This document shows, in pieces, positions 26,117 to 41,733 of a stretch of DNA of 64,000 nt (position 1 is its first letter; the number at the start of each line of letters is the position of its first letter). The notes beneath the pieces were generated by a model. That model was given only the letters and a program-made list of their open reading frames with translations, had not been told where the DNA came from and ran no database searches. The stretch is from IMG/VR virus record IMGVR_UViG_3300046468_001139, one strand, 5' to 3'. Made by a program: the position numbers and the translations under genes. The stretch is from a virus.

Positions 26117-29100
26117 ATGGCAGAATTTAAACTAGGTAGAATTAGATTTGTATGGAAAGGTTCTTGGACAACCGGAACTGTATACTATAAAGACGACATC
26201 GTAAGACAAGGCGGAAGAACTTACTTCTGTAACGTAGGTCACACAGCGTCTGCAGATTTTGCCACAGATGAATCAGCTAAATGGCAACTATTTACAGATG
26301 GTGTTTCTTGGAACGGTACTTGGACTTCTAACTACTATTACAAACAAAACGACCTTATTAAATATGGTGGTTACCTTTACGTTTGTAACACAGCTCACAC
26401 TTCTGAAGTAGACGGTGCAACAGCAGGAAAATTAGAAACTGATCAAGCTAAATGGGATTTATTTGCAGAAGGCTTTGATTGGAAAAGCGACTGGACTATT
26501 ACTACAGTTTATAAAGTAAATGACATTGTTAAGTACGGTGGTAATTTATATCTTTGTAACACAGCACATACAGGTTCAAGTTCACAAGGTAGTGACACTG
26601 ATGGATTAGAAGCAGATCTTTCTAAATGGGATATTTTCTCAAAAGGAATGGACTGGAAAAGCGACTGGGCAATTAGTACAAGATACAGAGCCGGCGATAC
26701 TGTTAAGTATGGCGGCAGAATGTACATTTGTAATGAAGGTCACCTTAGTGCGGCAACAACTGGCGATGGTCTAGAATCAGATCAAACTAAGTGGGACGTT
26801 GTACACAACGGTATTGAATACAAAACAGTACATGCAATTAATACACGATACAAAATTAATGATGTTGTTAAGTATGGTGGCGGTCTTTGGATCAACACAC
26901 ACGAACATACATCAAGTGCAACAAGTTTAACTGACGATGTTACAAGTGCAGGACACATTGTAACGATTGATCAAATTAGTGCCGCTGACACAGACAGAAC
27001 AGCAGGTACATACAACGACATTACAGGAACATCAAACGGTTCAGGTACTGGACACAGATTTAATATTACAATAGACAATCTTGGTGCGGCAACTGTAACA
27101 GTAGTTAAAGGTGGACAAGGACATGCGATTGGTAACACAATTTCAATTAGTCCAACAGACTTTGGCGGAACAGGAACTACACTTACGTTTAACGTTCTTA
27201 CTATTGAAACAAGTACACAATGGCAACAGTTTATTCCAGGTTTAGAATTTGAAGACAGTTGGTCAGGATCAACTGCATACCAAATAGGTGACTTTGTTAC
27301 TTATGGTGGTTACTCTTATATTGCTACGCAAAACAACACTAACGTTGTTCCATTTGGTAACGCATCAACATGGGATTTATTTACAACAGGATTTAGTTTA
27401 AAAGGTGACTACAATAATGCAACTGCTTATAAAGTTGGTGATGTAGTTAGAGTTGGTGGATACACATATATTAGTATCCAAGACACAACAGGAAACAGAC
27501 CACCTAACGTAACTTATTGGGACAGACTTAACGAAGGTATGTCTTGGAAAGATGCGTGGGCTAACGCAACATACTACGACTTAGGTGATGTTGTTAGAGG
27601 AATTAACAATGTTAACTCTTATATTTGTGTACAAGCACACACATCAGATCAAGTAAGTAATCAAGATAGACCAGATCAAGATGTAGCAGGTGCATATTGG
27701 AAACTTATGTCAGGCGGTGTTGAGTCAGGTAACTTAACAACTGCTGGTGACTTAGTTTACTACGGTGGATCAGGACCAACAAGATTACCAATTGGTAAAG
27801 ACGGTCAAGTATTAAAAGTTAATGAGGCAGGTAATGCTCCGGAATGGGCATACTTTGGTCAGTTAGATCAAGTTTACTATGTTGGTAAAAGTGGTGTTGA
27901 CGGATTTGCACCAGCATATGGTGTTACAATCGATAAGCCATTCTTTTCAACAAGATGGGCATGTGAGCAAATACGTAAAGGGCCACGTAACCCAGAAGCA
28001 ACAAATTTAATTGAGATGAACAAACAGTTTATCCAAGAACAAACAATGGAATTTATTACACACAGTATTGCAAATAATACTGCTCCATTTACAACTTCAT
28101 TTACATATGATGCAGTTAAATGTCGTAGAGACATTGGAATTATTTTAGATGCATTACTATGGGATCTAAGACACGGCGGTAATGTAAGAATGCGTGAATG
28201 TGCATTGTCTTATATTTCACCAGGTGGTGCAAACTATGTTGCAGGACAAACAGCAGAAACTAATGCGGCAATTAATTACGCAATGAGCTTACTGCCAAAC
28301 ATTATTACAAATTTACCACCAGCGGCAAACTACGCAACATTAAACAGCGTAGCAACACCAGTTGTACAATTTACTGATTCAACTAAAACTGCTGAGCCAA
28401 ACATTGCAACAACAGCTAATGCGTTGACATTATTAATTACAGATACAATTACAGCAGGTAATACTACTAATTTACAGAAAAAAATTAAACCAAACGTAAC
28501 AGTATTTGTTAAAACAGGACAGTATAACGAAATACTTCCAATTATTGTTCCAGCAGATGTAGCAGTTGTTGGTGATGAATTACGTAGTACAGAAATTAGT
28601 GCGGCAACAGCAGGACCAACTGATGTTAACGATGCTAACCTAAGTAAAACTGCTATACTAAGAATGAAAGCAATACTTAGCGATGTTGTATTAAACAACG
28701 CTGTTACTAAAACAGCGGCAGGTGGACACTTAACAATGGATACATTTAGTGCCGCAGACGCAAGTAGAGCAACAGGTACGTATACAGGCGTAACAGGTTC
28801 AAGTTCAGCGGCAGGTACAGTAGGAACATTTGATATTACAGTAGATGCTAACGGTGCAGTAACAAGCGTATTAGTAGTTACAGCAGGATCAGGACATGCA
28901 ATTAACGACACAATTACTATTGCAGATAGTGTATTAGGTAACGGCGGTGGAGCGGCATTTACAATGGATGTTGCAACAATCAGTACAGGTAACACACGTA
29001 CACAAGATGTTAGATTACCAGCAGGTAATGCAACGGCTGTTACAACAGCTGAGTTACTATTCCAAGACATTCATAATTACATTGACTATGAAGTTAACGG

Positions 29101-32100
29101 AGCAGGAACTAAACCAACAGTTGTAGGACAAGTTGGTAGAAGAACTGATGCGGCTTACACAGATACAAGAGGTAGAATTTTAGCTAACTTAGAATTCTTA
29201 GTAGATGAAGCATATGAATATATTCAAGCTAACAATACTAAAGCATTCCAAGAAGCAAGTCCAGATGCGGCTCAACAAGCATCATGTAAAAGAGATGCAA
29301 GAGAATATGTAAAAGCAGTTCTTTGGGATTTAGAAAACTTTGGTAACTACTATTCAACACTTACAGGTAGATGGTTTAGTAACGCAGTAGGTGGATCACT
29401 TACAGAAGATATGTTCTACTTAGAAAACGGTACTGGTTTAAGAAACTGTACTGTTAAAGGACTAGCAGGAGCATTAGGTGCACCAAACGCATACGGAACT
29501 AAACGTCCAACAGCAGGAGCATTTTGTTCACTTAACCCAAGTTGGGGACCAGATGATGAAGATGCGTGGATTGCTACTAGATCACCATACGTACAAAACG
29601 TAACAACGTTTGGTACAAGATGTGTTGGACTTAAAGTAGACGGAGATATTCATAACGGTGGTAACGATTCAATTGTTGCTAACGACTTTACACAGGTACT
29701 TGATGAAGGTATTGGTGCATGGGTTACTAACTTAGGAAGAGCAGAACTTGTTTCCGTGTTCTCATACTACGGACACATTGGTTATCTTGCAGAAGCAGGT
29801 GGTAAAATACGTGCTACTAACGGTAACAGTTCATATGGTGACTTTGGTACTGTAGCAGAAGGTGTTGACTTAACTGAAACAGCTATTAAAGCAACAGTAG
29901 ATAACAGAAGTTTTGACGCAGTTATTGGTGCAGTTGTAACTAACAACGCAGGAATTATACACCACGAATATTTACATGCAGGTAGAGAATATGTACCAGC
30001 TAACACAACACTTAGTTACTCAGGAGATGGATTTGGTATTACTGGATTAACTCCAACAGTTGTTACAGGTGGTGTTATGCAGATTAGATTAACAGGTACA
30101 GCATCAACATTTGGTGGAGCAGATTATAAAACTGCAACTAATACTCCACAAACTGGTGATACTACAAGCATTACAATTTCAAACACAGATGCTTCGTTGA
30201 GTGCGGCATACGCAGGTATGGCAGTATTCTTAGTAGGTGGTAAAGGTGCAGGGCAGTATGGATATATTGATACATACAACGCAGGTACAAAAATTGCAAC
30301 TATTAAAAAATATTCAGATAACTTAGCAGGTTGGGACACTACAGTTAACGGACAAACAGTTGAAACTGAATTAGATAATACAACGCAATACAGCATTGAA
30401 CCAAGAGTTACTATTAGTGCTCCTGGTAATGATGGATCAACAGCAACGGCACAAGCTATTGCTAGAGCAAAAGTTGCAGATGGTAAAATTAGTGAAGTAA
30501 GAATTATCCACCCAGGTGCTTCTTATACATCACCTCCAACAGTAACATTTACAGATCCAAACAATACACTAGATGCTCCATTAGAAGTATTCTTAGGCGA
30601 TGGTGTACTTGCACAACCAACTTTTGCTTCAAGAGGAACAGGTTGGACAACAGCTACAGCTGAAGTTGTAGATGCAGGTTATGAAAAAGACATTACAGGA
30701 GTATCATTTACTGCTAATCCTTATGCTTATACATTGCTTACAGCTAACAAAGAATTTATTAAAGACGAAGTTATTGCTTATATTGACAATCAAATTGCAA
30801 ACGCGGCGGTTGGTAGTTCATTATGGGATGCCTTTACATATGATGCAACAACATGGGAAGCAGACGTTGGCGAATATGTTGACGCACTAGCACATGATAT
30901 TAAGTTTGGTGGAACTAAAGAAACAATTAGAGCCGCTAGAAGTTATTGGATTGGTGTAAACTCTACGCTACCAGGAAGACAAGGTCAAAAACTTGCGGCT
31001 TATGAGTTTATGAGAACGTTGCTAACAACTAATATTTTAGCTAACTCGGCTTACACAACTTTACAAAGTCCAGTAGTAACTACACAAACTACAAATGCTA
31101 ACAACGGTGAAGCAGGTGCTATTACTTTAATGGGCGGCTTAATTGACATTGTTAACGAAGGACTAATAAACGGACTTGACAGTTTACCACAAGACGGTGG
31201 AACAGGTATATTAAATATCACTGTTACATCACATGGATTAATTGACGGAGACAAAGTGTTAATTAATACAGTTGGTGGTACAACACAAATTAACGGTAAT
31301 AGATATTATGTAAAACGTATTGATGCAAATACTTTACAACTTTACTTAGATTATTTGTTACTATTTCCGGCAGTACTTACAAACGGTAGCCCATATGTTG
31401 CTAACGGTACTATATCATACGGAGCAGGTTATAGAGATGCTAAACAAGATGGCAAATACATGCAGGTTGAAGGAATGGAAAGTATTCCACAAGCTGGTGC
31501 AAACGTAGAATTTGCAAGTTTACCAAATCAATTCTTTAAACTTGTTAGTGTTACACAATTAACTGGTAGTTCACCATACTCAGCATTACTACAAATATCA
31601 CCAAACATGGAGTTAGACGATGCTCCAGCACATGGCGATAATGTTGAAATGAGAATTAGATACTCACAATGTAGACTAACAGGACATGACTATTTGGACA
31701 TTGGTACTGGTGGATTCACTACTACTAACTATCCAGGTACTCCAACTACACCAGCTGATCCTACAGATGAAGCTGTAGAAGGTGGTGGAGGAAGAGTGTT
31801 CTTCACAAGTACAGACCAAGACGGTAACTTTAGAGTTGGTGACTTGTTTAGTGTTGAACAGGCAACTGGTATTGCAACTCTAAATGCTGATGCATTTAGT
31901 ATATCAGGACTACAAGAACTACAACTTGGAGCAGTAGCACTTGGCGGTGCTGGTGCAACAGTTAACGAATTTAGTACAGATGGTACGTTTACCGCGAACA
32001 GTGATAGTATTGTTCCTACACAGAAAGCTATTAAGACATATATTACTAGCCAAATTGGTGGAGGAGCTTCAGAATTGAACGTAAATAGTGTAACTGCTGG

Positions 32101-32230
32101 TGTTATCAATATTCAAGGTAATACAATAACAACTACTACCGGAGTATTAATAAATACAACAGCACAGATGCATTTCACAGGTGGCGTAAGCGGATCACCT
32201 GTAGCGATGCAACAATTTATATTGAGCTAA
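26117..32230 (+). CDS. large tail fibre/spike-like protein, paralog of 20735
   Basis: 2037 aa; same MAEF.L.RIR..WK start, GDELRS, YVQNVTT, SIVANDFTQ, STDQDGNFRVG motifs. Confidence 0.7.
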   Translation: MAEFKLGRIRFVWKGSWTTGTVYYKDDIVRQGGRTYFCNVGHTASADFATDESAKWQLFTDGVSWNGTWTSNYYYKQNDLIKYGGYLYVCNTAHTSEVDGATAGKLETDQAKWDLFAEGFDWKSDWTITTVYKVNDIVKYGGNLYLCNTAHTGSSSQGSDTDGLEADLSKWDIFSKGMDWKSDWAISTRYRAGDTVKYGGRMYICNEGHLSAATTGDGLESDQTKWDVVHNGIEYKTVHAINTRYKINDVVKYGGGLWINTHEHTSSATSLTDDVTSAGHIVTIDQISAADTDRTAGTYNDITGTSNGSGTGHRFNITIDNLGAATVTVVKGGQGHAIGNTISISPTDFGGTGTTLTFNVLTIETSTQWQQFIPGLEFEDSWSGSTAYQIGDFVTYGGYSYIATQNNTNVVPFGNASTWDLFTTGFSLKGDYNNATAYKVGDVVRVGGYTYISIQDTTGNRPPNVTYWDRLNEGMSWKDAWANATYYDLGDVVRGINNVNSYICVQAHTSDQVSNQDRPDQDVAGAYWKLMSGGVESGNLTTAGDLVYYGGSGPTRLPIGKDGQVLKVNEAGNAPEWAYFGQLDQVYYVGKSGVDGFAPAYGVTIDKPFFSTRWACEQIRKGPRNPEATNLIEMNKQFIQEQTMEFITHSIANNTAPFTTSFTYDAVKCRRDIGIILDALLWDLRHGGNVRMRECALSYISPGGANYVAGQTAETNAAINYAMSLLPNIITNLPPAANYATLNSVATPVVQFTDSTKTAEPNIATTANALTLLITDTITAGNTTNLQKKIKPNVTVFVKTGQYNEILPIIVPADVAVVGDELRSTEISAATAGPTDVNDANLSKTAILRMKAILSDVVLNNAVTKTAAGGHLTMDTFSAADASRATGTYTGVTGSSSAAGTVGTFDITVDANGAVTSVLVVTAGSGHAINDTITIADSVLGNGGGAAFTMDVATISTGNTRTQDVRLPAGNATAVTTAELLFQDIHNYIDYEVNGAGTKPTVVGQVGRRTDAAYTDTRGRILANLEFLVDEAYEYIQANNTKAFQEASPDAAQQASCKRDAREYVKAVLWDLENFGNYYSTLTGRWFSNAVGGSLTEDMFYLENGTGLRNCTVKGLAGALGAPNAYGTKRPTAGAFCSLNPSWGPDDEDAWIATRSPYVQNVTTFGTRCVGLKVDGDIHNGGNDSIVANDFTQVLDEGIGAWVTNLGRAELVSVFSYYGHIGYLAEAGGKIRATNGNSSYGDFGTVAEGVDLTETAIKATVDNRSFDAVIGAVVTNNAGIIHHEYLHAGREYVPANTTLSYSGDGFGITGLTPTVVTGGVMQIRLTGTASTFGGADYKTATNTPQTGDTTSITISNTDASLSAAYAGMAVFLVGGKGAGQYGYIDTYNAGTKIATIKKYSDNLAGWDTTVNGQTVETELDNTTQYSIEPRVTISAPGNDGSTATAQAIARAKVADGKISEVRIIHPGASYTSPPTVTFTDPNNTLDAPLEVFLGDGVLAQPTFASRGTGWTTATAEVVDAGYEKDITGVSFTANPYAYTLLTANKEFIKDEVIAYIDNQIANAAVGSSLWDAFTYDATTWEADVGEYVDALAHDIKFGGTKETIRAARSYWIGVNSTLPGRQGQKLAAYEFMRTLLTTNILANSAYTTLQSPVVTTQTTNANNGEAGAITLMGGLIDIVNEGLINGLDSLPQDGGTGILNITVTSHGLIDGDKVLINTVGGTTQINGNRYYVKRIDANTLQLYLDYLLLFPAVLTNGSPYVANGTISYGAGYRDAKQDGKYMQVEGMESIPQAGANVEFASLPNQFFKLVSVTQLTGSSPYSALLQISPNMELDDAPAHGDNVEMRIRYSQCRLTGHDYLDIGTGGFTTTNYPGTPTTPADPTDEAVEGGGGRVFFTSTDQDGNFRVGDLFSVEQATGIATLNADAFSISGLQELQLGAVALGGAGATVNEFSTDGTFTANSDSIVPTQKAIKTYITSQIGGGASELNVNSVTAGVINIQGNTITTTTGVLINTTAQMHFTGGVSGSPVAMQQFILS

Positions 32231-32243
32231 AAGGAGAAATAAT

Positions 32244-32564
32244 ATGGCCACAGGAAGATTAGGACACGCAGATTTAGCCGCTGGCACTAACACTTCTCTT
32301 TACACGGTACCTGCAAACACCTTCGGGATTGTTACGCTATCGATTTGTAATAGAGGAAATAGTGCTATTTCGGTAAGAGTTGCGGTCGCATCAGCTGGAA
32401 CACCACTAGATAGTGAATACATTGAATATGATGTAGAAATTCTAGCTAAAGGTGTGTTAGAGAGATCAGGTATTGCTTTGGCGGCAGGGCAAATACTTGT
32501 TGTTTACAGTTCTGCCGTGAACGTCAGTGCAGTAGCAATGGGTATTGAGACATCTACAGCATAA
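32244..32564 (+). CDS. small beta-rich virion protein
   Basis: LYTVPA, SICNR, YIEYD, LERSGI. Confidence 0.6.
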   Translation: MATGRLGHADLAAGTNTSLYTVPANTFGIVTLSICNRGNSAISVRVAVASAGTPLDSEYIEYDVEILAKGVLERSGIALAAGQILVVYSSAVNVSAVAMGIETSTA

Positions 32565-32597: not shown

Positions 32598-32930
32598 ATG
32601 GGAAGATATATTTCAACAACAGGAACTGCTAGTAGCGTTATTCGTACAGTTAACACTACTTATAGTGCTATTGTTAATGATAGAATTTTAGCTGATTCTT
32701 CGGGTTCTGGATTTACAATTACTTTACCGGCAAACGCTGGCTTAGTCGTAAACGATACAATTTCAGTCATTGATGTTACAGGTAATTTCAACACCAACAA
32801 TGTAACACTTAGCAGAAATGGTTCAAAGATCCAAAACTTATCTGAGGATTTAGTTTTAGATATTAATAACGTAGCGATTACATTGATTTATTCCGGGTCG
32901 ACTTACGGCTGGATTATGTCAGGAACGTAA
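32598..32930 (+). CDS. gp9/gp10-like baseplate/fibre adaptor domain protein
   Basis: FTITLP...D.I..ID..G.F..NN.T..RNG.KI...EDL.LD...L.Y...GW pattern. Confidence 0.55.
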   Translation: MGRYISTTGTASSVIRTVNTTYSAIVNDRILADSSGSGFTITLPANAGLVVNDTISVIDVTGNFNTNNVTLSRNGSKIQNLSEDLVLDINNVAITLIYSGSTYGWIMSGT

Positions 32931-32948
32931 GAAGAGAGGATATTAACT

Positions 32949-33689
32949 ATGGCAGACCTGAGAACACTATTAGGCGACACTATTGGAGGATCATCCGTTC
33001 CAACAAAATTCTTCTACGTCTACAATAACAATAGAGGAATTAACAATGGTGGTTGCTGTTGTAACTGGACAGTACCAGCTGGTATTGTTAACGTAACATT
33101 TGAGTTATGGGGAGCAGGCGCGGCAGGAGCAGGAGGTTGCTGTTGTCAGTTTAGTTCACAGAACGCAGGTGGCGGGTCGTATAGTATTAGATCACACTCA
33201 GTTGTAGCTGGATGCACATTTACAATTTGTGCGGCAGGTAACGGAGCATGTTGTGAACGTGATTGTCTAGGAATAGACGGATCAACTAGTTTTGTAACTG
33301 GATCAAGTATTCCAACAACATGTGCAAGAGGTGGATGTACAGGAAGAACAAACTGTCATGCACACTACGCATATAATTGTTGCTTTGGATGTTCACAGAT
33401 ATCAGGCGGTACACAAGGTGATCTAAGATTAGGACACTCGCGTAACGCACCACTACACACACATTACTGCCACAATCAAATGTGGGATTATGTTAGTGGA
33501 CCACCAAAAGGTGGTATGACTAGAAAGGGTCGTGATTACTGCGGTAATCCAATGACTTGTTCAGGTTGTGGATGGGGTTGTGCTCAACCTTACCCAGGAG
33601 ACGGTGGATATAATGGTACTGCATGTGGCGGTCCATGCTGTTGGGGTCATTGGGGCTCAGGCGGAATGGTTAAGGTGTCGTACAGTTAA
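32949..33689 (+). CDS. Cys/Gly-rich putative tail-tip protein 1
   Basis: About 25 Cys in 246 aa; CCC.W.VP, FELWGAG, G.GG.V.V.Y glycine-rich domain. Confidence 0.65.
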   Translation: MADLRTLLGDTIGGSSVPTKFFYVYNNNRGINNGGCCCNWTVPAGIVNVTFELWGAGAAGAGGCCCQFSSQNAGGGSYSIRSHSVVAGCTFTICAAGNGACCERDCLGIDGSTSFVTGSSIPTTCARGGCTGRTNCHAHYAYNCCFGCSQISGGTQGDLRLGHSRNAPLHTHYCHNQMWDYVSGPPKGGMTRKGRDYCGNPMTCSGCGWGCAQPYPGDGGYNGTACGGPCCWGHWGSGGMVKVSYS

Positions 33690-33718
33690 TATGACTAAAT
33701 ACAAACGAAGGAAACAAA

Positions 33719-34411
33719 ATGGCTGAAATTACAAAAAACTTTACATATGATATCCCCAATGAATATTTGAGTCAATCAAATAGCGACGGGGATACAGCAA
33801 CAGCTAGTTATACAGGTCCAGAGACTTTATATATCTATGTTGATGCAACAAGCGGACAAAATACACTATCACAAAATCCACCAGATGAGGATTTTAACTA
33901 CAATCCAACTACTGATACAACACCAGAAGGTGAAAGATTAGTTGAATTAGATTGTTCAGGCGAAGATACTTTAATGTGTGCTATCTTTCTTCCACACACA
34001 GTAACGTTAACGCAAAGTGATGTTGTAACAAATTTACCAGAAGGTTACGGAACTTACGCAACACAATGGCCACCATACCCAGATCATGCTTACGAAAGAG
34101 AAATGTGTACGCATAGTGCTGATACAGGTAATTGGACATTGACTTGGAAACAACCGTGGCAAACATGGGAAACATTAACACAATTAAGAAACGATAGACT
34201 AGATGCAACGGATCATAGAGTATCAGCAGATATGCCTGATAGCGTTAAGAATCCTTGGATTGAATTTAGACAAAAACTTAGAGAATTACCAGTTACGTAC
34301 GGACGTGGTACAGCAGATGAAATTCCAGCACATATGGTTAAGTTCCCCGAAGAACCAACTGTAGGCGGATATGCTGAAGCACCAGCTGAAGACGGCGTAG
34401 GAATAGGTTAA
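33719..34411 (+). CDS. phage tail assembly chaperone-domain protein
   Basis: W..L...RN.RL..TD....DMP.....W..FRQ.LRELP ... FP.EP. Confidence 0.7.
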   Translation: MAEITKNFTYDIPNEYLSQSNSDGDTATASYTGPETLYIYVDATSGQNTLSQNPPDEDFNYNPTTDTTPEGERLVELDCSGEDTLMCAIFLPHTVTLTQSDVVTNLPEGYGTYATQWPPYPDHAYEREMCTHSADTGNWTLTWKQPWQTWETLTQLRNDRLDATDHRVSADMPDSVKNPWIEFRQKLRELPVTYGRGTADEIPAHMVKFPEEPTVGGYAEAPAEDGVGIG

Positions 34412-34423
34412 GGAGAACAATAA

Positions 34424-35194
34424 ATGTCTGCATTAAGATCACTATTACAACTTGGAACAGATTCCGGAGCAAAGCCTCTGAGAACAATTTATGTTTACCA
34501 CAGTTCATTTGATAACACTCGTAACAGTAACCCAGGTTGTTGTTGCGGTTGGACACCTAGTGCAGATGTAAACTGGGCGGCTTTTGAAACTTGGGGTGCA
34601 GGCGGAGATGGCGGCGGTGGCTGTTGTTGTATGGCAGGGTTCCCAGGAGGAGCAGGATCATACGGTAGAAAAATTGCTGAAATAACACCAGGCGCAACAT
34701 TTACATTATGTGCAGGAGCGGCAGGTTGCTGTAGACCAGTAATGGGCTGTACAGGATGTGGTAGTTATGCATGTTCAGGTAACGGTTGTAAATCAGGAGG
34801 CTACTTTTGCTTATGTGCATCAGGTGGCGGATATGGTTGTGCAACTTGTGGATTTGGTACTGCATGGGGAGGACATTGCGGATGTCCAAACAGAATGTGT
34901 GGTTGTGTAAAAGGCGCAGACTTTAGTATGTGCGGACACAATGGCGGCGGAGCAGGAACAGCGATGTGTTCTAGTTCATCATGGGAAAACATGACGTCAG
35001 CACCATACGGTGGACAAAGTGCTAGAATGTCAAGAGATAACTGTTATAAAACACACGGTAGAGATGCAGGCGGACCAGCTGACTTCCCAGGAGGAGGCGG
35101 AGGAACGCTACATACTCACAACGGTACTTGTTACTGTGGTGGACCGGGAGCTGGTGGATTAGTAGTAGTTTACTATCAATCGGAAGTAGGATAA
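34424..35194 (+). CDS. Cys/Gly-rich putative tail-tip protein 2
   Basis: About 26 Cys in 256 aa; same scaffold as 32949. Confidence 0.65.
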   Translation: MSALRSLLQLGTDSGAKPLRTIYVYHSSFDNTRNSNPGCCCGWTPSADVNWAAFETWGAGGDGGGGCCCMAGFPGGAGSYGRKIAEITPGATFTLCAGAAGCCRPVMGCTGCGSYACSGNGCKSGGYFCLCASGGGYGCATCGFGTAWGGHCGCPNRMCGCVKGADFSMCGHNGGGAGTAMCSSSSWENMTSAPYGGQSARMSRDNCYKTHGRDAGGPADFPGGGGGTLHTHNGTCYCGGPGAGGLVVVYYQSEVG

Positions 35195-35206
35195 GGAGAG
35201 TAATTT

Positions 35207-36013
35207 ATGTCAAATTTAAGAGATTATATTCCAGGATACGATGTAGGCGTTGCATCTCCAAATGCATTTACAGTTAGTTACGCTTGGAACTCAGATCACA
35301 ACGAAGCGTGGCCAGCACAAGCATATGGTGTACCACCAGAATCAAGATATTATTGTAACAACAACGGCGGTAAATGTTGTAGATGGACTGTTCCATCAAG
35401 TGCTACTTTTGCAGTATTTGAAATGTGGGGCGGCGGATCATCAGGCGTAGGTGGCTGTTGCTGTATGCAAGGCTATCCAGCAGACTCAGGCGGATATGCT
35501 ATTAAATCAACAAACGTAACAGGCGGCGATGCTTTTACAATTTGTGCAGGTAGATCAGGATGTTGTTTATACGCAGGTAATAACTATGCAGGACACAACA
35601 GTTTTGTATTTGGAACACCAACAGGCGGCTCATGTTTTTGTGCTGTAGCTTGTGGAGGTTACTGTAGTAACTGTACACATTGTCATGGTTTCTTTAGCTG
35701 TTATGGTTGCTGTATGAACTGTTATAACTGTCAAATTCAACCTAATAACGTTGACTTTGGTATTGCAAGTTTCACAGGTTCTTCACAAAGATCACAGCAT
35801 TGCGGTGATAGAGGATTAGAATTAACACCAACTGCTCCAATGGCACAGTCAGGACCTAAAATGGGACCAAACGGTTGCTGTACAAGAGGCGGAGAGTGTC
35901 AAGGATTTGGTTCATGGCCAGGTGGCGCAGGAGAATCAGGTAGAGCATACGGCGGCGGTTGCTGTTGTGGTTCACCAGGTGCTGAAGGCGCAGTATACGT
36001 GGTGTATTATTAA
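35207..36013 (+). CDS. Cys/Gly-rich putative tail-tip protein 3
   Basis: About 27 Cys in 268 aa; same scaffold. Confidence 0.65.
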   Translation: MSNLRDYIPGYDVGVASPNAFTVSYAWNSDHNEAWPAQAYGVPPESRYYCNNNGGKCCRWTVPSSATFAVFEMWGGGSSGVGGCCCMQGYPADSGGYAIKSTNVTGGDAFTICAGRSGCCLYAGNNYAGHNSFVFGTPTGGSCFCAVACGGYCSNCTHCHGFFSCYGCCMNCYNCQIQPNNVDFGIASFTGSSQRSQHCGDRGLELTPTAPMAQSGPKMGPNGCCTRGGECQGFGSWPGGAGESGRAYGGGCCCGSPGAEGAVYVVYY

Positions 36014-36035
36014 AGGTAACAAATAGGAAAATAGA

Positions 36036-37406
36036 ATGATAGATCCAAATGCAACAGATAGAGTAGTAGAAGTAAACGTAGACTTCTCATATGATATGCC
36101 AGATGCATATCTGTATCAAACTACCAACTTAGGTAAAGTGGGTACTTGGACTTATGAAGGTCCTAGAGAGATGTGGGTATTTTTACGTAAAAGAGATAAC
36201 AAGCGTACAGGTGAAGTTAAATTTAGCTACCAAGTTGAAGATGATTTTGTACCTGCGGCAAGTGAATACATGGTTAAAGTTAACTGTGAAGAAAATCCTC
36301 TACTTTGCGAATTAATGGAAACTGATCAAGACACACTATTTTTAGAAGGCAGAGAACAAATAAGTGAAACACTTCCAATGGATGATTGGGAAGGTAATGC
36401 ATTTGTACATATTGAGCCTAAAGTTCCTACACCAGATCACACATACGATAGAGATGAAATTGAATACAACCCAACTGCACAGGAATGGGTTACACCTTTT
36501 CCTTTTATTAAGCCACACACAGATTGGGAAGCAATTAAAAGAGTACGTTGGTCTAGATTAAATGCTAGTGACGGACACGTATCAGAAGATATGCCAGAAA
36601 GTTTATTAACTGCATGGCAAGACTACAGAACAAAATTAAGAGGCTTACCAGCTACATACGGTGCGGCATGGACAGTAACCATTGCAACAGCAGGAACAGG
36701 ATATGCAGTAGGCGACAACTTTAACGTTGACGCAAGTGTATTTGGTTTTGGTAGTGAAGATGTAGGTGCATTAGACGATTTAAGTCAACCAATGGGTAAG
36801 AGACCAGGATTTGATTTTGAAGCGGCAACTAGTGGTTTAGACGATACAGCTCTTGTTAACGAAAATGATTCATTAGATGTAAACATTATTGTTACATCAG
36901 TTGATAGTGATGGTGCAGTTACAGGTGTTAGAACACGTAATGCATTTAACGCAAGACATATTAAAGAAGCACGTACACTTAATGACGTAGCAACTACAGC
37001 AACTACAAGCGGTGGTTCAGGTGCAACGTTTAATCTAAGTAAAGTAGTTAGAGTAGACCCGTGGAAAGTAAGATTACCACAGAGTCCAAACGCACAACGC
37101 CCTGGTGTATATGGTGAAAGAGACCAATTCCCAGGACAAATTGGGCGTTATTTGAGTGAAGAAGATCGTAACAATCCAGCAGATGGATGGTTAATGGAAC
37201 ACACATATCACCCTGCAACAAGACACTATGTTCCACCTGAAAGTGGCGGTAATTATTTTGCTTATGATTTAGAAAGATTGAATCTAAGTACAGATGGTAC
37301 ACCGTACGATGACGGTGTTGCAGACGGGCTTCCAACACCCCCTACAGACGTAAGAGGCAATACACGTATTGCTGGTACTGTAACAGCCAGAAAACAATCA
37401 AGCTAA
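36036..37406 (+). CDS. tail assembly chaperone-domain protein with C-terminal extension (paralog of 33719)
   Basis: FSYDMPDAYL/TYEGP matches FTYDIPNEYL/YTGP; W..IK..R..RL..SD....DMP....W..YR..LR.LP. Confidence 0.65.
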   Translation: MIDPNATDRVVEVNVDFSYDMPDAYLYQTTNLGKVGTWTYEGPREMWVFLRKRDNKRTGEVKFSYQVEDDFVPAASEYMVKVNCEENPLLCELMETDQDTLFLEGREQISETLPMDDWEGNAFVHIEPKVPTPDHTYDRDEIEYNPTAQEWVTPFPFIKPHTDWEAIKRVRWSRLNASDGHVSEDMPESLLTAWQDYRTKLRGLPATYGAAWTVTIATAGTGYAVGDNFNVDASVFGFGSEDVGALDDLSQPMGKRPGFDFEAATSGLDDTALVNENDSLDVNIIVTSVDSDGAVTGVRTRNAFNARHIKEARTLNDVATTATTSGGSGATFNLSKVVRVDPWKVRLPQSPNAQRPGVYGERDQFPGQIGRYLSEEDRNNPADGWLMEHTYHPATRHYVPPESGGNYFAYDLERLNLSTDGTPYDDGVADGLPTPPTDVRGNTRIAGTVTARKQSS

Positions 37407-37463: not shown

Positions 37464-38459
37464 ATGACAGATAAAAGAAATACGGCTATTTTTATCAATG
37501 GTGGCGCTGGCAGAGTTCTTGCTAGTATTCCAGCACTTGAGAAGTTTGCAGAAGAAAATCCAGAAGATAACTTTATCATTGTATGCGAAGGCGGTACTGA
37601 CTTTTATAAAGGTCATCCAGTACTACATGCAAAAGCATACGATCACTGGCACAAGAATCTTTTCCAAGATAAACTTAAAGATATGAATTTAATTACACCT
37701 GAGCCTTATAGAGCTTGGGAATACTATAATCAAAAATGTAGTATTGCAGAAGCATACGATATTCAAATTAATAACAAAGGACTACGTAAATTAAGCAAAC
37801 CAATTTTAAAACTTTCTAGAGAAGAAATGTTGTTTGGTAAAAAGCTAGTTGACGAAGTTAAAGAAAAAACTAAAAAAGACAAAGTAGTTGTTTTCCAACC
37901 ATTTGGTAGAGCAGTACAACATGACAATGGTGTAATTACTGATTGGAGTGGTAGAAGTTTTGAAGCTGAAAATTCAGTTAATATTGTTAAGTCACTTTCT
38001 AAAAAATATGCAATGGTACACATGGCAGAGTTTGGTATTGACTTTTCAAAACACGGTTGTAAAGAACCTGTAGCAAGTCCTATGGGTGCAGACCTAAGAC
38101 ATTGGGCTGGCATTATTGCAAATGCAGATTACTTTTTAGGCTGTGATAGTGTAGGTCAACATATTGCACATGCACTAGGTGTTAAATGTACAGTAGTAAT
38201 AGGTTCAACTTTTCCAATTAATGTTTCGTATCCAGAAGATAAAAACTTTGATATTTTAGACATGGGCGAAGGTGCTAGAGTATATTCACCTATTAGAGTT
38301 ACAACAGATGAATATGCAGATAGAGTTAATGACGGTATCATGGCAATGAATGACAAAGTTGAAAGTGTTATTTGTGAATCAGTAACAGCAGGAATTAGAA
38401 ATAAGAAAAAAGTTGGTGCTCAATATAACAGTACTAACAAAGAAGCAACTCCTGCTTAA
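37464..38459 (+). CDS. glycosyltransferase, GT9 (heptosyltransferase)-like
   Basis: GG.G.VL.SIPAL N-terminus; LR.WAGII..AD.FLG.DS..QHIA.ALG....V..G.T C-terminus. Confidence 0.7.
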   Translation: MTDKRNTAIFINGGAGRVLASIPALEKFAEENPEDNFIIVCEGGTDFYKGHPVLHAKAYDHWHKNLFQDKLKDMNLITPEPYRAWEYYNQKCSIAEAYDIQINNKGLRKLSKPILKLSREEMLFGKKLVDEVKEKTKKDKVVVFQPFGRAVQHDNGVITDWSGRSFEAENSVNIVKSLSKKYAMVHMAEFGIDFSKHGCKEPVASPMGADLRHWAGIIANADYFLGCDSVGQHIAHALGVKCTVVIGSTFPINVSYPEDKNFDILDMGEGARVYSPIRVTTDEYADRVNDGIMAMNDKVESVICESVTAGIRNKKKVGAQYNSTNKEATPA

Positions 38460-38461
38460 TA

Positions 38462-39298
38462 ATGAAACGTTTATTTGTATTTGGGTGTTCCTATACATCA
38501 TGGAATTGGCCAACCTACGCAGATATCTACGCACAGGAATTTGATCACTATGAAAATTGGGGTCATGCAGGCTTAGGAAATAGAGCTATTGCTGAACGTG
38601 TTGCAGAATGCCACGCTACAAATGAATTTGACAAAGACGATACAGTAATAGTACAATGGTCAAGTCACTTACGTTACGATTATCTTAACTTTAAACACAA
38701 AGAACCTTGGCAAACTAAAGGTAGTATATTCAGCTATCAAAACAAAGAAGTGTTTGATGACAAATGGATAGAAACTTTTTATGATGAAAAAGCATTGTTT
38801 TTACATACAATGAATAACATTATACTTACTAAGGGTTTATTAAAAGATACAAATTGCAAGTTTTATTTTACAAGCATTAGTAACTTAGAAACACTAGGAA
38901 CAGATATTCCGCATCAAAAAGGACATGGTGAAAATTTAAGAAATACACCTGAACTTGCTGATGCATTTAAAGAGTTTGATTTAGAACAATATAGATACGT
39001 ACTAGAAGGTCCTGAATGGTTAGAATCATTAGGATTACATGCTTGGAATAGACCAGACTCTAGTTGGTGGTTTGAAGAAAATGGCGAAAAATGGTTAGAG
39101 TTACACCCTAGTCCAATACAGCATTTAAGTTTTTGCCAGTCATATCTAAGCCACAACTTATCAGAACAAACACAAAATATGATAGATACTGTTATAGATT
39201 GTAAAACTAACGACTACAAAGAAACTATTAAAAATATTACAAGTTTGCAATTAGCAAATTGGGATAGAAGTTATAGAGGAATAAAAGATGCCAAGTAA
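38462..39298 (+). CDS. SGNH-hydrolase-like hypothetical protein
   Basis: FGCSYT..WP, N.G..G.GN, VIVQWS..R, HP...H. Confidence 0.5.
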   Translation: MKRLFVFGCSYTSWNWPTYADIYAQEFDHYENWGHAGLGNRAIAERVAECHATNEFDKDDTVIVQWSSHLRYDYLNFKHKEPWQTKGSIFSYQNKEVFDDKWIETFYDEKALFLHTMNNIILTKGLLKDTNCKFYFTSISNLETLGTDIPHQKGHGENLRNTPELADAFKEFDLEQYRYVLEGPEWLESLGLHAWNRPDSSWWFEENGEKWLELHPSPIQHLSFCQSYLSHNLSEQTQNMIDTVIDCKTNDYKETIKNITSLQLANWDRSYRGIKDAK

Positions 39299-41099
39299 AA
39301 AGCCAGTATGGATTGCAGGAATTGCTAGAGGACATAACGGTGGAGTATGTCTATTAAAAGACGGTGAAATTGTTTTTTCAATTGAAGAAGAACGTTTAAC
39401 AAGACAAAAGTACGACGGTGGTCCGTATGCAAGTATGATTAAGATACTTGAATACACAGACAAACTAGACTTTTTAGTTGTTGCACATACACAAAATTTA
39501 GAACAAACTGCTGGCAAAGTAGACTTTAGTGGCGATGATGTTTATACAGGACTTGCACGTAAGCTAGGACTTATTAAACGTGAAGCATTCCAAGGTGGTA
39601 ATCATCCTCAAGTAATTGACATGTCAAACATTCATCATAAGTTACATGCCGCTTGTGCTTTTTATCGTTCAGGATTTGAAGATGCAGTAGCAGTTATTGT
39701 TGATGGTGCTGGTACATTTATTACTTTAGACATTGGCGGACAACCTACTACTGTTTGGGAAACAGAAAGTATTTACGATTGCAACTATCCAGATAACTTT
39801 AAAACATTATACAAACACATTGGTGCTAATGGACCTGTTATGGGTGCATGGATGCCTGAGTTTTCAAGTGAAATGTATGACGAAGATAAAGACCAAACAC
39901 ACGAATTAGTTATTTCAGAAAATGCTGGTATTGTTAAAGCGTATGAAGCAGTTACAGAGTACTGTGGATTCAGTTTTATTGAGGCAGGTAAAACTATGGG
40001 ATTGTTTCCATACGGTAAAGCAGACAGTCCAGCACCCAAAATATTTAGACATGATACAATGACACCACAAGCAGATAGACATGTTATTGTTCCAACGTAT
40101 CCTAACGGTGCTCATGTTAATTACAACATGCACACATACTTAACAGATCATGGCGATGAAGATAATCAAGATGTAACGTATTTAGAAAACAGACGTAACA
40201 TGGCTTATCAAATACAAACAGAAAGCCAAAAAGAAGTTGCAAATTTAATTCGCAAAGCAGTTGCAATGACAGGTAAAAACAAAGTAGTTATTAGTGGCGG
40301 ATATGGTCTTAACTGTGTTGCTAACTATTATTACTTAGAAGAATTAAAAGACGAAGGCATTGAAATTTATGTTGAGCCAGTAAGTAATGATGCAGGTACA
40401 GCAATGGGTGGTGCAATGTTAATGCACAGACGTTTAACTAAAAGTAATAAACGTCAAGAGCAACAAGAAACATTATACGAAGGACCAGCTTACAGTTATA
40501 CAGATGAAGAAATTAATGCAGTTGTAGAAAAGTATGACGCAACTGTTGAAGATGCAGACAATACTAAAGCTGTAGACTTACTAGTTGATAGAAAAATTGT
40601 TACACTATTCCAAGGACGTTCTGAAAACGGTCCACGTGCATTAGGTAATAGAACTATTATGTATGATCCAAGTGATCCTAATGGTAAAGATTATGTAAAC
40701 AAAGTTAAACGTAGAGAATATTTCCGTCCTTTTGCAGGTAGTATATTAGAAGAAGATGTACATGAATGGTTTGACTTGCGTGGAATGAAAAGTTCACCTA
40801 CAATGATGTATGCTGTAAACTGTCAAGAAGGTATTGCTGAAAAGATTCCAAGTATTATTCACGTAGATGGTACATGTCGTATTCAAACAGTTAATAGAGA
40901 TCAAAACAAACATTACTATGATGTTATTAAAGCATTTAAAGAACGTACTGGTATTAGTATTATTTTCAATACTAGTTTTAACTTAGGTGGCGAGCCATTA
41001 GTTGAAACACTAGATGATGCTGTGCGTACACTACGTAATAGTGATATTGAATATCTTTATTTGCCAGAATATAATAAGCTAATTACAGTAAAAAATTAA
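39288..41099 (+). CDS. carbamoyltransferase (NodU/CmcH/TobZ family)
   Basis: EEER, HH..HA, DGAG, GKTMGL, SGG..LNC.AN, GPRALGNR, RE.FRPFA, NTSFN. Confidence 0.92.
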   Translation: MPSKKPVWIAGIARGHNGGVCLLKDGEIVFSIEEERLTRQKYDGGPYASMIKILEYTDKLDFLVVAHTQNLEQTAGKVDFSGDDVYTGLARKLGLIKREAFQGGNHPQVIDMSNIHHKLHAACAFYRSGFEDAVAVIVDGAGTFITLDIGGQPTTVWETESIYDCNYPDNFKTLYKHIGANGPVMGAWMPEFSSEMYDEDKDQTHELVISENAGIVKAYEAVTEYCGFSFIEAGKTMGLFPYGKADSPAPKIFRHDTMTPQADRHVIVPTYPNGAHVNYNMHTYLTDHGDEDNQDVTYLENRRNMAYQIQTESQKEVANLIRKAVAMTGKNKVVISGGYGLNCVANYYYLEELKDEGIEIYVEPVSNDAGTAMGGAMLMHRRLTKSNKRQEQQETLYEGPAYSYTDEEINAVVEKYDATVEDADNTKAVDLLVDRKIVTLFQGRSENGPRALGNRTIMYDPSDPNGKDYVNKVKRREYFRPFAGSILEEDVHEWFDLRGMKSSPTMMYAVNCQEGIAEKIPSIIHVDGTCRIQTVNRDQNKHYYDVIKAFKERTGISIIFNTSFNLGGEPLVETLDDAVRTLRNSDIEYLYLPEYNKLITVKN

Positions 41100-41103
41100 A
41101 GTC

Positions 41104-41733
41104 ATGGAAGACGACTTTATCCAATATTTTGATATAAAAATTCACTGGACCAAAGAAACAGATGGCTGTGGCAACACAATGGTCGACGACTTTATTGATG
41201 CAACACAAGCAATAAGTCAAGATAAAAAATTTAACAATGTATTAGAATGGTGTAGTGGACCAGGCTTTTGGGGGTTTGGGTTACTTGCAACAGGTATAGC
41301 AAACAAAGTTACATTGGCAGATATCTATGAGCCAACTCAGCTTCCTGTATTACAAACAATAAAAGAAAATAACTTAGAAAATACTGCACAATTTATTCTA
41401 AGCGATAACTTTACAAACATTCCGCAACAAAAATTTGATCTAATTGTTGCTAATCCTCCTCATTTCAATATGGATCCGTATGTAGCACACTATGACGATC
41501 CAAGGAAATATAAAGATTTAGACTGGTCTATACATAGAAATTTCTTTAATAACGTTAACAATTATCTAACTGACGACGGAATTATTGTACTTGCTGAAAA
41601 TGTATGGGGGTCAAATCCTGACACTTTTCAAGACATGATTACTGATAATGATTTACAAATTACACATCATTTTGTAAGCAAACAATACCCTTTAGACATG
41701 TGGTATTTAGGCATTACACGCTTACACCACTAG
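41104..41733 (+). CDS. class I SAM-dependent methyltransferase (small MTase/HemK-like)
   Basis: LEWCSGPG SAM-binding motif; DLIVANPPH. Confidence 0.8.
   Translation: MEDDFIQYFDIKIHWTKETDGCGNTMVDDFIDATQAISQDKKFNNVLEWCSGPGFWGFGLLATGIANKVTLADIYEPTQLPVLQTIKENNLENTAQFILSDNFTNIPQQKFDLIVANPPHFNMDPYVAHYDDPRKYKDLDWSIHRNFFNNVNNYLTDDGIIVLAENVWGSNPDTFQDMITDNDLQITHHFVSKQYPLDMWYLGITRLHH

What the first reader, a model, noticed from the sequence alone, without database searches (positions are those of the whole stretch)
32598..37406. Cassette of three ~10%-cysteine fibre proteins interleaved with two paralogous chaperones
Seen: three paralogs of a Gly-rich tail domain (W.(V)P...FE.WG.G...G.GG...V.Y) with 25-27 Cys each, including repeated CCC, CxC, CxxC and His motifs. 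All begin M..LR..(L/I). Two tail-assembly-chaperone proteins with a shared N-terminal domain and a gp9/10-like adaptor flank them. Such Cys density is unusual for cytoplasmically assembled virion proteins. Inference: a metal-thiolate (Zn/Fe/Cu) or heavily disulfide-locked heteromeric fibre tip, possibly mimicking a metal ligand for host uptake receptors or acting as a redox trigger.
Basis: partly seen in the sequence, partly recalled or inferred. Interest (0 to 1): 0.8.

Follow-up and report, generated by a model that had tools for sequence, protein, structure and literature searches.

The report
Cysteine-packed trio of phage fibre heads
Three neighbouring genes of this uncultured T4-like marine phage encode tail-fibre head proteins of a known glycine-rich fold that are about 10% cysteine, together with two folding helpers; the same set recurs in many marine phages, including cultured Synechococcus phages, and what the cysteines do is still open.

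Summary
Three paralogues of 246, 256 and 268 aa carry 25, 26 and 27 Cys (about 10%, against 2.4% or less elsewhere in the window). They are interleaved with two paralogous chaperone-like proteins.

The fold is known. An AlphaFold model of the first protein matches the tail-fibre head of cyanophage Pam3 (gp24, TNF-like plus glycine-rich domain) at Z 17.1. Mycobacteriophage Bxb1 tail-tip proteins and the ALK glycine-rich domain follow.

The cysteine-rich form is a large family that I did not find described. At least 150 representative clusters have a median of 8.9% Cys. All 80 complete related loci carry exactly three heads. Cultured Synechococcus phages S-SSM7 and S-CAM1 have the cassette, annotated only as hypothetical proteins.

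New results here:
- 19 of 25 Cys of the first head sit in the long glycine-rich loops, and five more sit at strand ends that I infer face those loops.
- Cys never vary among close relatives.
- Cys counts show no even-number bias, per protein (59 even, 69 odd) or per trio (29 even, 30 odd).
- The rare Cys changes are all single.

These results argue against a fixed set of disulfide pairs. I slightly favour a metal-thiolate cap over disulfides, but this is unproven. This scan has flagged the same cassette many times on other DNA, and follow-ups there reached the same fold assignment.

The parts
26117..32230 (+). Giant fibre protein (2037 aa) directly upstream; likely the shaft that the small proteins and heads belong to
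   Evidence: ORF. A fibre ORF running off the locus start or of ~2100-3400 aa precedes the cassette in related loci L001, L004 and L085, and a 'tail fiber-like protein' precedes it in S-SSM7. Its role as the carrier of the heads is inferred.
32244..32564 (+). Small fibre-associated protein A (106 aa, starts MATGRLG)
   Evidence: PHROG tail fiber protein phrog_11338 at 1.1e-10. Orthologues sit at the same place in L004, L085 and S-CAM1 gene 103.
32598..32930 (+). Adaptor-like protein B (110 aa, no Cys, starts MGRYIS, ends YGWIMSGT)
   Evidence: PHROG matches to parts of tail, tail-spike and fibre proteins (phrog_4302 at 1.2e-16, phrog_9648 tail protein at 1e-8). No Pfam or NCBIfam hit. Conserved in L001 and L004 and S-CAM1. 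The adaptor role is inferred.
32949..33689 (+). Cys-rich fibre head, type 1 (246 aa, 25 Cys): short N-terminal docking peptide plus TNF-like sandwich plus glycine-rich loops tipped with Cys
   Evidence: phrog_4205 at 1.5e-26. AlphaFold model pLDDT 66, pTM 0.68. Pam3 gp24 7ypx_A at Z 17.1, rmsd 2.8 A over 191 residues. 19 of 25 Cys lie in the long loops.
33719..34411 (+). Chaperone-like protein T1 (230 aa): N-terminal beta domain plus C-terminal helical hairpin
   Evidence: phrog_9740 at 3.4e-31 and phrog_4912 tail fiber assembly at 8e-9. Pfam PF16778 scores 23.6 bits against a cut-off of 26.6. The profile hits 2kz6 at E 8e-4. Model pLDDT 86; residues 148-214 match 2kz6 at Z 5.9 with 27% identity.
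34424..35194 (+). Cys-rich fibre head, type 2 (256 aa, 26 Cys)
   Evidence: phrog_4205 at 1.2e-16. Pfam PF21722 Gly_rich_2 scores 19 bits, below the 24.3 cut-off. One-to-one orthologues in L001 and L004.
35207..36013 (+). Cys-rich fibre head, type 3 (268 aa, 27 Cys)
   Evidence: phrog_4205 at 1.5e-17. One-to-one orthologues in L001 and L004.
36036..37406 (+). Chaperone-like protein T2 (456 aa): first ~215 aa paralogous to T1, then an unassigned C-terminal extension
   Evidence: 34% identity to T1. phrog_9740 at 1e-23; PF16778 scores 22 bits, below its cut-off. Orthologues are 219 and 319 aa long, so the extension is variable.

Best explanation
The cassette encodes the distal heads of this phage's fibres, which probably bind the host.

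What is shown:
- The three proteins are anciently diverged paralogues of the head fold solved in cyanophage Pam3 gp24. This fold is a TNF-like beta-sandwich whose long inter-strand loops rise as glycine-rich hairpins.
- Each head here has only a ~20-residue conserved N-terminal peptide (M-x-x-L-R-x-L-L) in place of Pam3's helical shaft.
- About three quarters of the Cys lie in the glycine-rich loops, mid-loop in the two loops that are easiest to read. Most of the rest lie at strand ends.
- Cys are invariant among close relatives.
- Cys numbers show no parity rule.

What is inferred:
- The heads dock through the N-terminal peptide onto the fibre, probably via the two ~110-aa proteins encoded just upstream.
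- T1 and T2 are Tfa/Phage_tail_APC-type chaperones that hold and fold the heads in the cytoplasm, as Pam3 gp25 does for gp24.
- The six loop tips converge at the distal end, so the Cys form a cross-linked cap. This cap replaces part of the polyglycine lattice: 18-23% Gly over these whole proteins, against 39% reported for Pam3's glycine-rich domain alone.
- The strand-end Cys are inferred to face the glycine-rich loops.
- Cap chemistry. The proteins must fold in a reducing cytoplasm, Cys counts are as often odd as even, and Cys change singly. I therefore favour a metal-thiolate (Zn-like, Cys with some His) cluster loaded in the cell, possibly oxidised in part after release, over a fixed disulfide network.

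My odds: fibre heads about 0.85; a cross-linked Cys cap about 0.7; metal about 0.4 against disulfide about 0.35.
For: Fold:
- VIA-align gives Z 17.1 to 7ypx_A, 12.5 to Bxb1 tail tip 9d93_Qa and 8.6-10.1 to ALK glycine-rich domains. The next unrelated row scores 5.2.
- Foldseek gives the same order, with E 7e-7 for the top hit.
- The Pam3 architecture and its chaperone are described in PMC9608196.

Family:
- Profile alignment to a Cys-poor protein with seven Gly_rich_2-like domains shows the same frame, with V and L where C94 and C125 stand.
- 1554 representative clusters hit at E<=1e-3. The best 150 have a median of 8.9% Cys.

Context:
- The order fibre, (A in W and L004 only), B, head, chaperone, head, head, chaperone is conserved in L001 and L004, with one-to-one orthology.
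- All 80 complete loci carry exactly three heads.
- S-SSM7 and S-CAM1 carry the cassette.

Cysteines:
- 19 of 25 lie in long loops and 5 at strand ends inferred to face them.
- Entropy among close relatives is 0.00-0.04 for Cys against 0.33-0.37 for other residues.
- Parity is 59 even to 69 odd per protein and 29 even to 30 odd per trio.
- In 52 independent close pairs, about 690 substitutions (my sum of the per-pair counts) include only 6 that touch Cys, each one single and never paired.
- His replaces Cys at C1 position 145 in 15 of 59 type-1 orthologues.
- No DsbA is found in four large records of related phages, two of them close relatives, or in the complete S-SSM7 genome.

From my own knowledge: metal ions are known stabilisers of T4 fibre and spike tips (gp37 with Fe and His, gp12 with Zn).
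Against: - No coordinates of the model could be read, so Cys clustering in space is inferred from topology, not measured.
- The model is only moderately confident (pLDDT 66), and lowest in the Cys-rich loops 136-153, 171-176 and 194-211.
- No metal-site motif is conserved across the family. The striking CxxCxxC runs of C3 are variable (37-56% conservation).
- Virions live in oxic seawater, where Cys-rich proteins are normally disulfide-bonded. Pam3 virions do contain disulfides, shown experimentally (PMC9942802).
- Parity and single changes also fit a mostly disulfide-bonded cap with one or two spare thiols.
- Presence in the virion has not been shown for any member.
- The chaperone assignment rests on sub-threshold Pfam scores and a weak fold match. 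Pam3 gp25 itself was not recovered.
Confidence: 0.45

Rival explanations
1. The proteins are the same fibre heads, but the Cys form a dense disulfide network. It forms spontaneously once the cell's redox state collapses or after lysis. It locks the loop tips for stability in seawater, as disulfides brace other polyglycine-helix proteins.
For: - Extracellular Cys-rich proteins are usually disulfide-bonded (general knowledge).
- Pam3 virions, which carry the same head fold, contain disulfides verified by cryo-EM and mass spectrometry, and they fall apart in DTT (PMC9942802).
- Cys are under very strong purifying selection.
- Some Cys columns co-occur: 38 with 94 (phi 0.50) and 102 with 174 (phi 0.49).
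Against: - There is no even-number bias per protein (59 even, 69 odd) or per trio (29 even, 30 odd).
- All six Cys changes between close relatives are single.
- The heads must fold and assemble in a reducing cytoplasm.
- No DsbA-type enzyme is found in the relatives' records or in S-SSM7.
- The Pam3 disulfides are in the wedge and the fibre shaft, not in the glycine-rich domain.
Confidence: 0.3
2. The three heads form one A:B:C heterotrimer, as the three tandem C1q genes give one TNF-like heterotrimeric head. The cassette would then make a single composite tip rather than three kinds of tip.
For: - All 80 complete loci have exactly three heads, and the 59 distinct trios were scored.
- Orthology is one-to-one across lineages at 35-50% identity.
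- The three share an N-terminal docking peptide.
- Chaperone number (1, 2 or 3) varies while head number does not.
- An earlier scan note reports sets that come in multiples of three (e1-5375423, not checked here).
Against: - Trio Cys sums show no parity signal of inter-subunit disulfides.
- In L085 each head has its own small chaperone and a different N-terminus. This looks more like three separate assemblies.
- Pam3 gp24 is a homotrimer (PMC9608196).
- No multimer prediction could be run.
Confidence: 0.4
3. The Cys cap is a redox switch. Thiol-disulfide exchange or reduction at the host surface changes the head or releases it, and so triggers infection.
For: Pam3 authors propose redox-dependent fibre attachment and tail contraction from DTT experiments (PMC9942802). 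Many conserved thiols here are inferred to lie at the distal end.
Against: There is no evidence in this system. The Pam3 switch involves other proteins and residues. Sequence analysis cannot show a switch.
Confidence: 0.1

Closest known systems
Cyanophage Pam3 tail fibre gp24 with its chaperone gp25 (PDB 7YPX, 7YFW; PMC9608196, PMC9942802)
   Same: The fold is the same: a TNF-like sandwich plus glycine-rich hairpin loops (Z 17.1, rmsd 2.8 A over 191 residues). The protein is small (~250 aa). The most Gly-rich runs are in the first and last long loops. A chaperone gene lies directly downstream, encoding an N-terminal beta domain and a C-terminal helical domain.
   Different: - About 10% Cys here, concentrated in the glycine-rich loops. 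The Pam3 papers mention only Cys28, in the shaft.
- About half the Gly content.
- A ~20-residue N-terminal peptide instead of a ~70-residue helical shaft.
- Three fixed paralogues instead of one gene.
- They lie at the end of a giant-fibre operon of a T4-like phage rather than being the only fibre of a minimal myophage.
- No sequence-level hit to the PDB entry, and the chaperone fold match was not recovered.
Mycobacteriophage Bxb1 tail-tip glycine-rich proteins (PDB 9D93, chains Qa and Qb)
   Same: Second-best fold match (Z 12.5, rmsd 3.7 A over 168 residues; Foldseek E 2e-5). They are also virion tail-tip components.
   Different: They belong to a siphophage of a Gram-positive-type host. Sequence identity is 16-20%. 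No Cys enrichment is known to me (not checked).
ALK/LTK extracellular TNF-like plus glycine-rich (TG) domain (PDB 7NX3, 7LS0, 7LIR)
   Same: The same combined fold (Z 8.6-10.1). It is a ligand-binding module.
   Different: It is part of an animal receptor kinase. It matches with only 12-16% identity over ~140 residues, and the biology is unrelated.
T-even type gp38 adhesin (Salmonella phage S16, PDB 6F45)
   Same: A small glycine-rich adhesin that caps a long fibre through a short N-terminal attachment part, which is the mode of use proposed here. The Pam3 paper calls it a structural relative of gp24.
   Different: It did not appear among the fold matches here. It has a beta-helix rather than a TNF-like middle domain. 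It is monomeric and is not Cys-rich.
Tail fibre assembly chaperones of the Phage_tail_APC / Tfa kind (Pfam PF16778; PDB 2KZ6)
   Same: T1 and T2 share the conserved C-terminal helical motif (R-x-x-L-R-x-L-P). The T1 profile hits 2kz6 at E 8e-4, with 27% identity over 60 aligned residues. PHROG tail fiber assembly families match.
   Different: Pfam scores are under the curated cut-off (23.6 and 22.0 against 26.6). The ~145-residue N-terminal beta domain has no recognised relative. T2 carries a 240-residue extra tail.

Membership tests
Pam3 gp24-type TNF-like + glycine-rich fibre head | Combined TNF-like sandwich and glycine-rich loop fold | tested here: met
   The model of C1 matches 7ypx_A at Z 17.1, rmsd 2.8 A over 191 residues. 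The next relatives are Bxb1 and ALK, and unrelated rows score 5.2 or less. Foldseek gives E 7e-7. Only C1 was modelled; C2 and C3 are assigned through 33-35% identity.
Pam3 gp24-type TNF-like + glycine-rich fibre head | Long glycine-rich motifs (GGGGxGG type) in the first and last loops | tested here: met
   The family consensus reads W-G-G-G-G-g-G-a-g after the F-E-x-W strand, and P-G-g-G-G ... G-a-g-G before the last strand. The runs are shorter than the ones the Pam3 paper describes.
Pam3 gp24-type TNF-like + glycine-rich fibre head | N-terminal alpha-helical shaft that docks on the baseplate wedge | tested here: not met
   Only ~20 residues precede the first strand, with one short helix at 4-7. 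The fold match starts at Pam3 residue 72. Longer-shafted family members do exist, such as P0126 with the domain at 243-476.
Pam3 gp24-type TNF-like + glycine-rich fibre head | Trimeric assembly and presence on the virion | not testable with these tools
   No multimer prediction is on hand and no proteomics data were found.
Pfam PF21722 Gly_rich_2 | Score above the curated gathering threshold | tested here: not met
   C2 scores 19.0 bits against a cut-off of 24.3. C1 and C3 have no hit at E<=0.1. Six family members carry a precomputed PF21722 hit, and the family profile aligns to seven domains of the same W-T-V-P / F-E-x-W-G frame in a Cys-poor protein at 1e-12 to 4e-21. This is therefore a divergent subfamily rather than an unrelated fold.
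Phage_tail_APC / Tfa-type fibre chaperone (T1, T2) | Pfam PF16778 above cut-off, or a clear relative with a solved structure | tested here: inconclusive
   Scores are 23.6 and 22.0 bits against a cut-off of 26.6. PHROG tail fiber assembly gives 8e-9 and 1.5e-5. The profile hits 2kz6 at E 8e-4. The fold match of Z 5.9 is tied with unrelated helical rows. Pam3 gp25 is not among the matches.
T4 gp9/gp10-type baseplate-fibre adaptor (ORF 32598-32930) | Match to a gp9/gp10 family model | tested here: inconclusive
   No Pfam or NCBIfam family at E<=0.1. There are only PHROG matches to parts of tail, spike and fibre proteins, the best at 1.2e-16 to a family of unknown function. No fold was predicted.
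Metallothionein-like metal-thiolate protein | Very high Cys (15-30%), few aromatic residues, conserved CxC/CxxC ligand sets, bound metal | tested here: inconclusive
   Cys is 10% and Trp, Tyr, Phe and His are plentiful. CC, CCC, CxC and CxxC motifs are present, but only 7-8 Cys per type are conserved at 95% or more. Metal content cannot be tested here. The heads may work like a thiolate cluster, but they are not metallothioneins.

The most novel reading that the evidence does not exclude
The Cys-tipped heads could be a new chemical kind of phage receptor-binding module. This would be a metal-thiolate or redox-active cap on a polyglycine scaffold, perhaps assembled as a C1q-like A:B:C heterotrimer. 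It would serve as the main host-recognition device of a large group of marine cyanophage-type myoviruses, and could make adsorption sensitive to redox state, light or trace metals.
Probability: 0.15. Interest if true: 0.8.

Novelty: new variant of a known kind. Interest (0 to 1): 0.55.

Why it matters
The receptor-binding proteins of marine T4-like cyanophages are largely unassigned. Here a conserved module (fibre, adaptors, three heads, chaperones) is present in cultured Synechococcus phages S-CAM1 and S-SSM7, annotated only as hypothetical proteins. The idea is therefore directly testable in the laboratory.

A fibre head with 10% cysteine, kept invariant among close relatives and made in a reducing cytoplasm, is chemically unusual for a virion protein. 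It would be one of three things. It could be the first thiolate-metal cluster on a phage fibre tip. It could be an unusually dense disulfide cap formed after release. Or it could be a redox-sensitive device of the kind proposed for Pam3. Any of these would bear on virion stability and host recognition in the ocean.

Tried and rejected
1. Heterotrimer-disulfide parity idea. The first four trios I counted had even Cys sums in three cases. Over 59 distinct trios the sums are 29 even and 30 odd, so the idea is rejected.
2. Pairwise Cys covariation. Some columns co-occur (phi up to 0.70), but they fall in clade-specific groups of three to five rather than clean pairs. The result is confounded by relatedness and not decisive.
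3. Search for a phage disulfide catalyst. DsbA is absent from four large records of related phages, two of them close relatives, and from the complete S-SSM7 genome. The Erv1/ALR search found nothing, but its controls also found nothing, so it is uninformative. Thioredoxin is present in the two close relatives only. No such enzyme was found among ten further ORFs of the window.
4. Sequence-only searches of solved structures found nothing real for the heads.
5. Megablast against phage records found nothing. tblastn is blunted by the low-complexity filter.
6. The window's own genome is not held, and the nearest record is a 24-kb fragment without the genes.
7. The fold search for T1 did not recover Pam3 gp25 or Mu Tfa.
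8. Scans for the T4 late-promoter motif and for terminators gave nothing useful around the cassette.
9. NCBIfam has no model for any of the seven proteins.
10. The literature holds no paper on a Cys-rich form of this domain or on Pfam Gly_rich_2. No virion proteome was found for a phage known to carry the family.

Full report
**What is there.** The + strand from 26117 to beyond 41099 is a tight run of genes. Within it lie the following ORFs:
- a 2037-aa fibre protein (26117-32230);
- two small proteins, A (32244-32564, 106 aa) and B (32598-32930, 110 aa);
- C1 (32949-33689), T1 (33719-34411), C2 (34424-35194), C3 (35207-36013) and T2 (36036-37406).

C1, C2 and C3 have 25, 26 and 27 Cys (10.1-10.2%) and 18-23% Gly. 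Each has two CCC triplets and several CxC and CxxC motifs. No other plausible ORF of the window exceeds 2.4% Cys. T1 and T2 share their first ~215 residues at 34% identity. The only correction is that the stated start, 32598, belongs to the Cys-free ORF B.

**What fold.**
- Pfam gives only a sub-threshold Gly_rich_2 hit for C2 (19 bits against 24.3). PHROGs place all three in phrog_4205, a family of unknown function.
- I built an alignment of 24 homologues and predicted C1. The model has pLDDT 66 and pTM 0.68.
- An all-against-representatives structural search puts the cyanophage Pam3 fibre first (7ypx_A, Z 17.1, rmsd 2.8 A over 191 residues). Next come mycobacteriophage Bxb1 tail-tip chains (Z 12.5) and four ALK glycine-rich domains (Z 8.6-10.1). 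Nothing unrelated scores above 5.2. Foldseek agrees.
- Pam3 gp24 is a ~280-aa trimeric tail fibre made of a helical shaft, a TNF-like sandwich and a glycine-rich domain of six hairpin loops. It folds with the chaperone gp25, encoded next to it, whose beta domain grips the head and whose helical domain trimerises (PMC9608196).
- The family profile also aligns with seven tandem domains of a Cys-poor 5418-aa protein. That protein has the same W-T-V-P and F-E-x-W-G-G-G-G frame, with V and L where C94 and C125 stand.

The proteins are therefore a Cys-rich branch of a known head fold.

**The helpers.**
- T1 and T2 match PHROG tail-fibre-assembly families (8e-9 and 1.5e-5) and Pfam Phage_tail_APC just under its cut-off.
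- A T1 profile hits the family's solved member 2kz6 at E 8e-4.
- The T1 model (pLDDT 86) has an N-terminal beta domain and a C-terminal helical hairpin. The hairpin superposes on 2kz6 with 27% identity, but at a Z (5.9) no better than unrelated helical proteins.
- The architecture parallels gp25, but gp25 itself was not recovered. The chaperone role is therefore likely, not shown.

**How widespread.**
- A word-indexed search found 42 relatives, all with 6.6-11% Cys.
- An exhaustive profile search found 1554 representative clusters at E<=1e-3. Of the 148 newly returned among the best 150, 141 have at least 6% Cys, with a median of 8.9%.
- In two distant metagenome contigs the order fibre, small protein(s), head, chaperone, head, head, chaperone is kept, and each head is the orthologue of the head at the same place here.
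- A scan of viral contigs gave 77 loci. Together with the other loci held at that point and the window, 80 were complete, and every one has exactly three heads.
- Cultured Synechococcus phages carry the module. S-SSM7 has three heads with 28-30 Cys, one chaperone, a GT9-like protein and a carbamoyltransferase (hhalign 99.8%). S-CAM1 has A, B and three heads with 36, 31 and 25 Cys, then one chaperone. All are annotated as hypothetical proteins.
- A further lineage (L085) has three heads, each followed by its own small chaperone-like gene.

**Where the cysteines are.**
- I took the strands of the model and the alternation of long and short loops expected of the sandwich. On that basis 19 of C1's 25 Cys lie in the long glycine-rich loops. 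In loops 1 and 2 they sit mid-loop, between a rising and a falling Gly run.
- Five more (36-38, 94, 125) lie at strand ends that I infer face those loops. One lies in a short loop at the other end.
- In Pam3 the first and last loops are central in the lattice. Here these loops carry the CCC at 64-66 and the Cys at 226, 230 and 231.
- I could not read model coordinates, so the picture of a Cys cap at the distal end is a topological inference.

**How the cysteines evolve.**
- Eleven columns are at least 80% Cys across 128 family members.
- Among 16 distinct close relatives of each head (at least 75% identity), Cys entropy is 0.00-0.04 against 0.33-0.37 for other residues. The variable stretches are mostly the N-terminal linker and the short loops at the opposite, proximal end of the sandwich, not the Cys-rich loop tips.
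- In 52 independent close pairs, about 690 substitutions (my sum of the per-pair counts) include only six that touch a Cys. Each of the six is a single change, to or from N, Q or Y, and never a pair.
- Cys counts are as often odd as even, both per protein (59 even, 69 odd) and per trio (29 even, 30 odd of 59 distinct trios).
- In families whose Cys are all paired, an even count is the rule (general knowledge). Here it is not.
- At one position (C1 145) His replaces Cys in a quarter of type-1 orthologues.
- No DsbA-type enzyme is present in four large records of related phages, two of them close relatives, or in S-SSM7.

**Reading.** I am confident that these are fibre heads with helpers. The Cys are individually indispensable, concentrated on the loops that form the distal end, and not organised as obligatory pairs. 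The proteins must also fold in a reducing cytoplasm. I therefore lean to a metal-thiolate cluster that braces the loop tips in place of part of the polyglycine lattice. A dense but imperfect disulfide cap formed after release is nearly as likely, and it has the Pam3 virion disulfides as a precedent (PMC9942802).

Whether the trio forms one heterotrimer or three homotrimers is open. The constant number three favours the first. The one-head-one-chaperone lineage and the homotrimeric Pam3 fibre favour the second.

**Known or new.** The fold and the chaperone principle are known. I found no paper on the Cys-rich form, its fixed triplication or its place in cyanophage fibre modules. This scan has flagged the same cassette on many other genomes, and earlier follow-ups reached the same fold assignment and left the Cys unexplained.

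Noticed in passing
window 37464-41733; also L006 (S-SSM7), L084 (S-CAM1), L001, L004, L085: A carbamoyltransferase follows the head cassette in every lineage looked at (window, L001, L004, L085, S-SSM7, S-CAM1). A GT9-like protein (phrog_8954, N-terminus ...FINGGAGR...) was seen in the window, S-SSM7, S-CAM1 and L085. S-CAM1 adds heptose-pathway genes. The window adds an SGNH-like ORF and a methyltransferase (PF05175). The enzymes may tailor a sugar on the fibre heads or on the host surface; this is untested.
   Followed up: partly
window 41790-43490: This 566-aa protein has only sub-threshold Pfam hints: Reeler at E 0.0033 and a C-terminal Cupredoxin_1 at E 0.0057, both with no stretch passing on its own.
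   Followed up: partly
window 36680-37406 (T2 residues ~215-456): The second chaperone carries a 240-residue C-terminal extension with no family match. Its orthologues are 219 and 319 aa long, so the extension is lineage-specific.
   Followed up: no
window 32244, 32598, 32949, 34424, 35207; L085 1747-6864: Three kinds of short N-terminal peptide recur on different bodies: MASGRLG-like, MGRY/MGRF-like and M-x-x-L-R-x-L-L. In L085 the MGRY/MGRF type sits directly on Cys-rich heads, whereas in the window it heads the 110-aa ORF B. They look like exchangeable docking tags of the fibre module.
   Followed up: partly
L084 4180-5942 (S-CAM1 genes 106 and 107): The annotated starts of two S-CAM1 heads lack the conserved N-terminal peptide and leave gaps of 103 and 147 nt upstream. 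The start codons may be mis-called.
   Followed up: no
window 34001-36000: G+C rises to 0.449 here against about 0.38 elsewhere in the window. I attribute the bump to the Gly and Cys codons of C2 and C3 rather than to foreign DNA.
   Followed up: partly
window 52265-56199 (- strand): An operon on the opposite strand encodes two 2OG-Fe(II) oxygenases, a cupin, an NAD-dependent sugar epimerase, a bifunctional PfkB kinase plus cytidylyltransferase-like protein (HldE-like) and a NUDIX hydrolase. This fits a phage-encoded heptose nucleotide pathway.
   Followed up: partly
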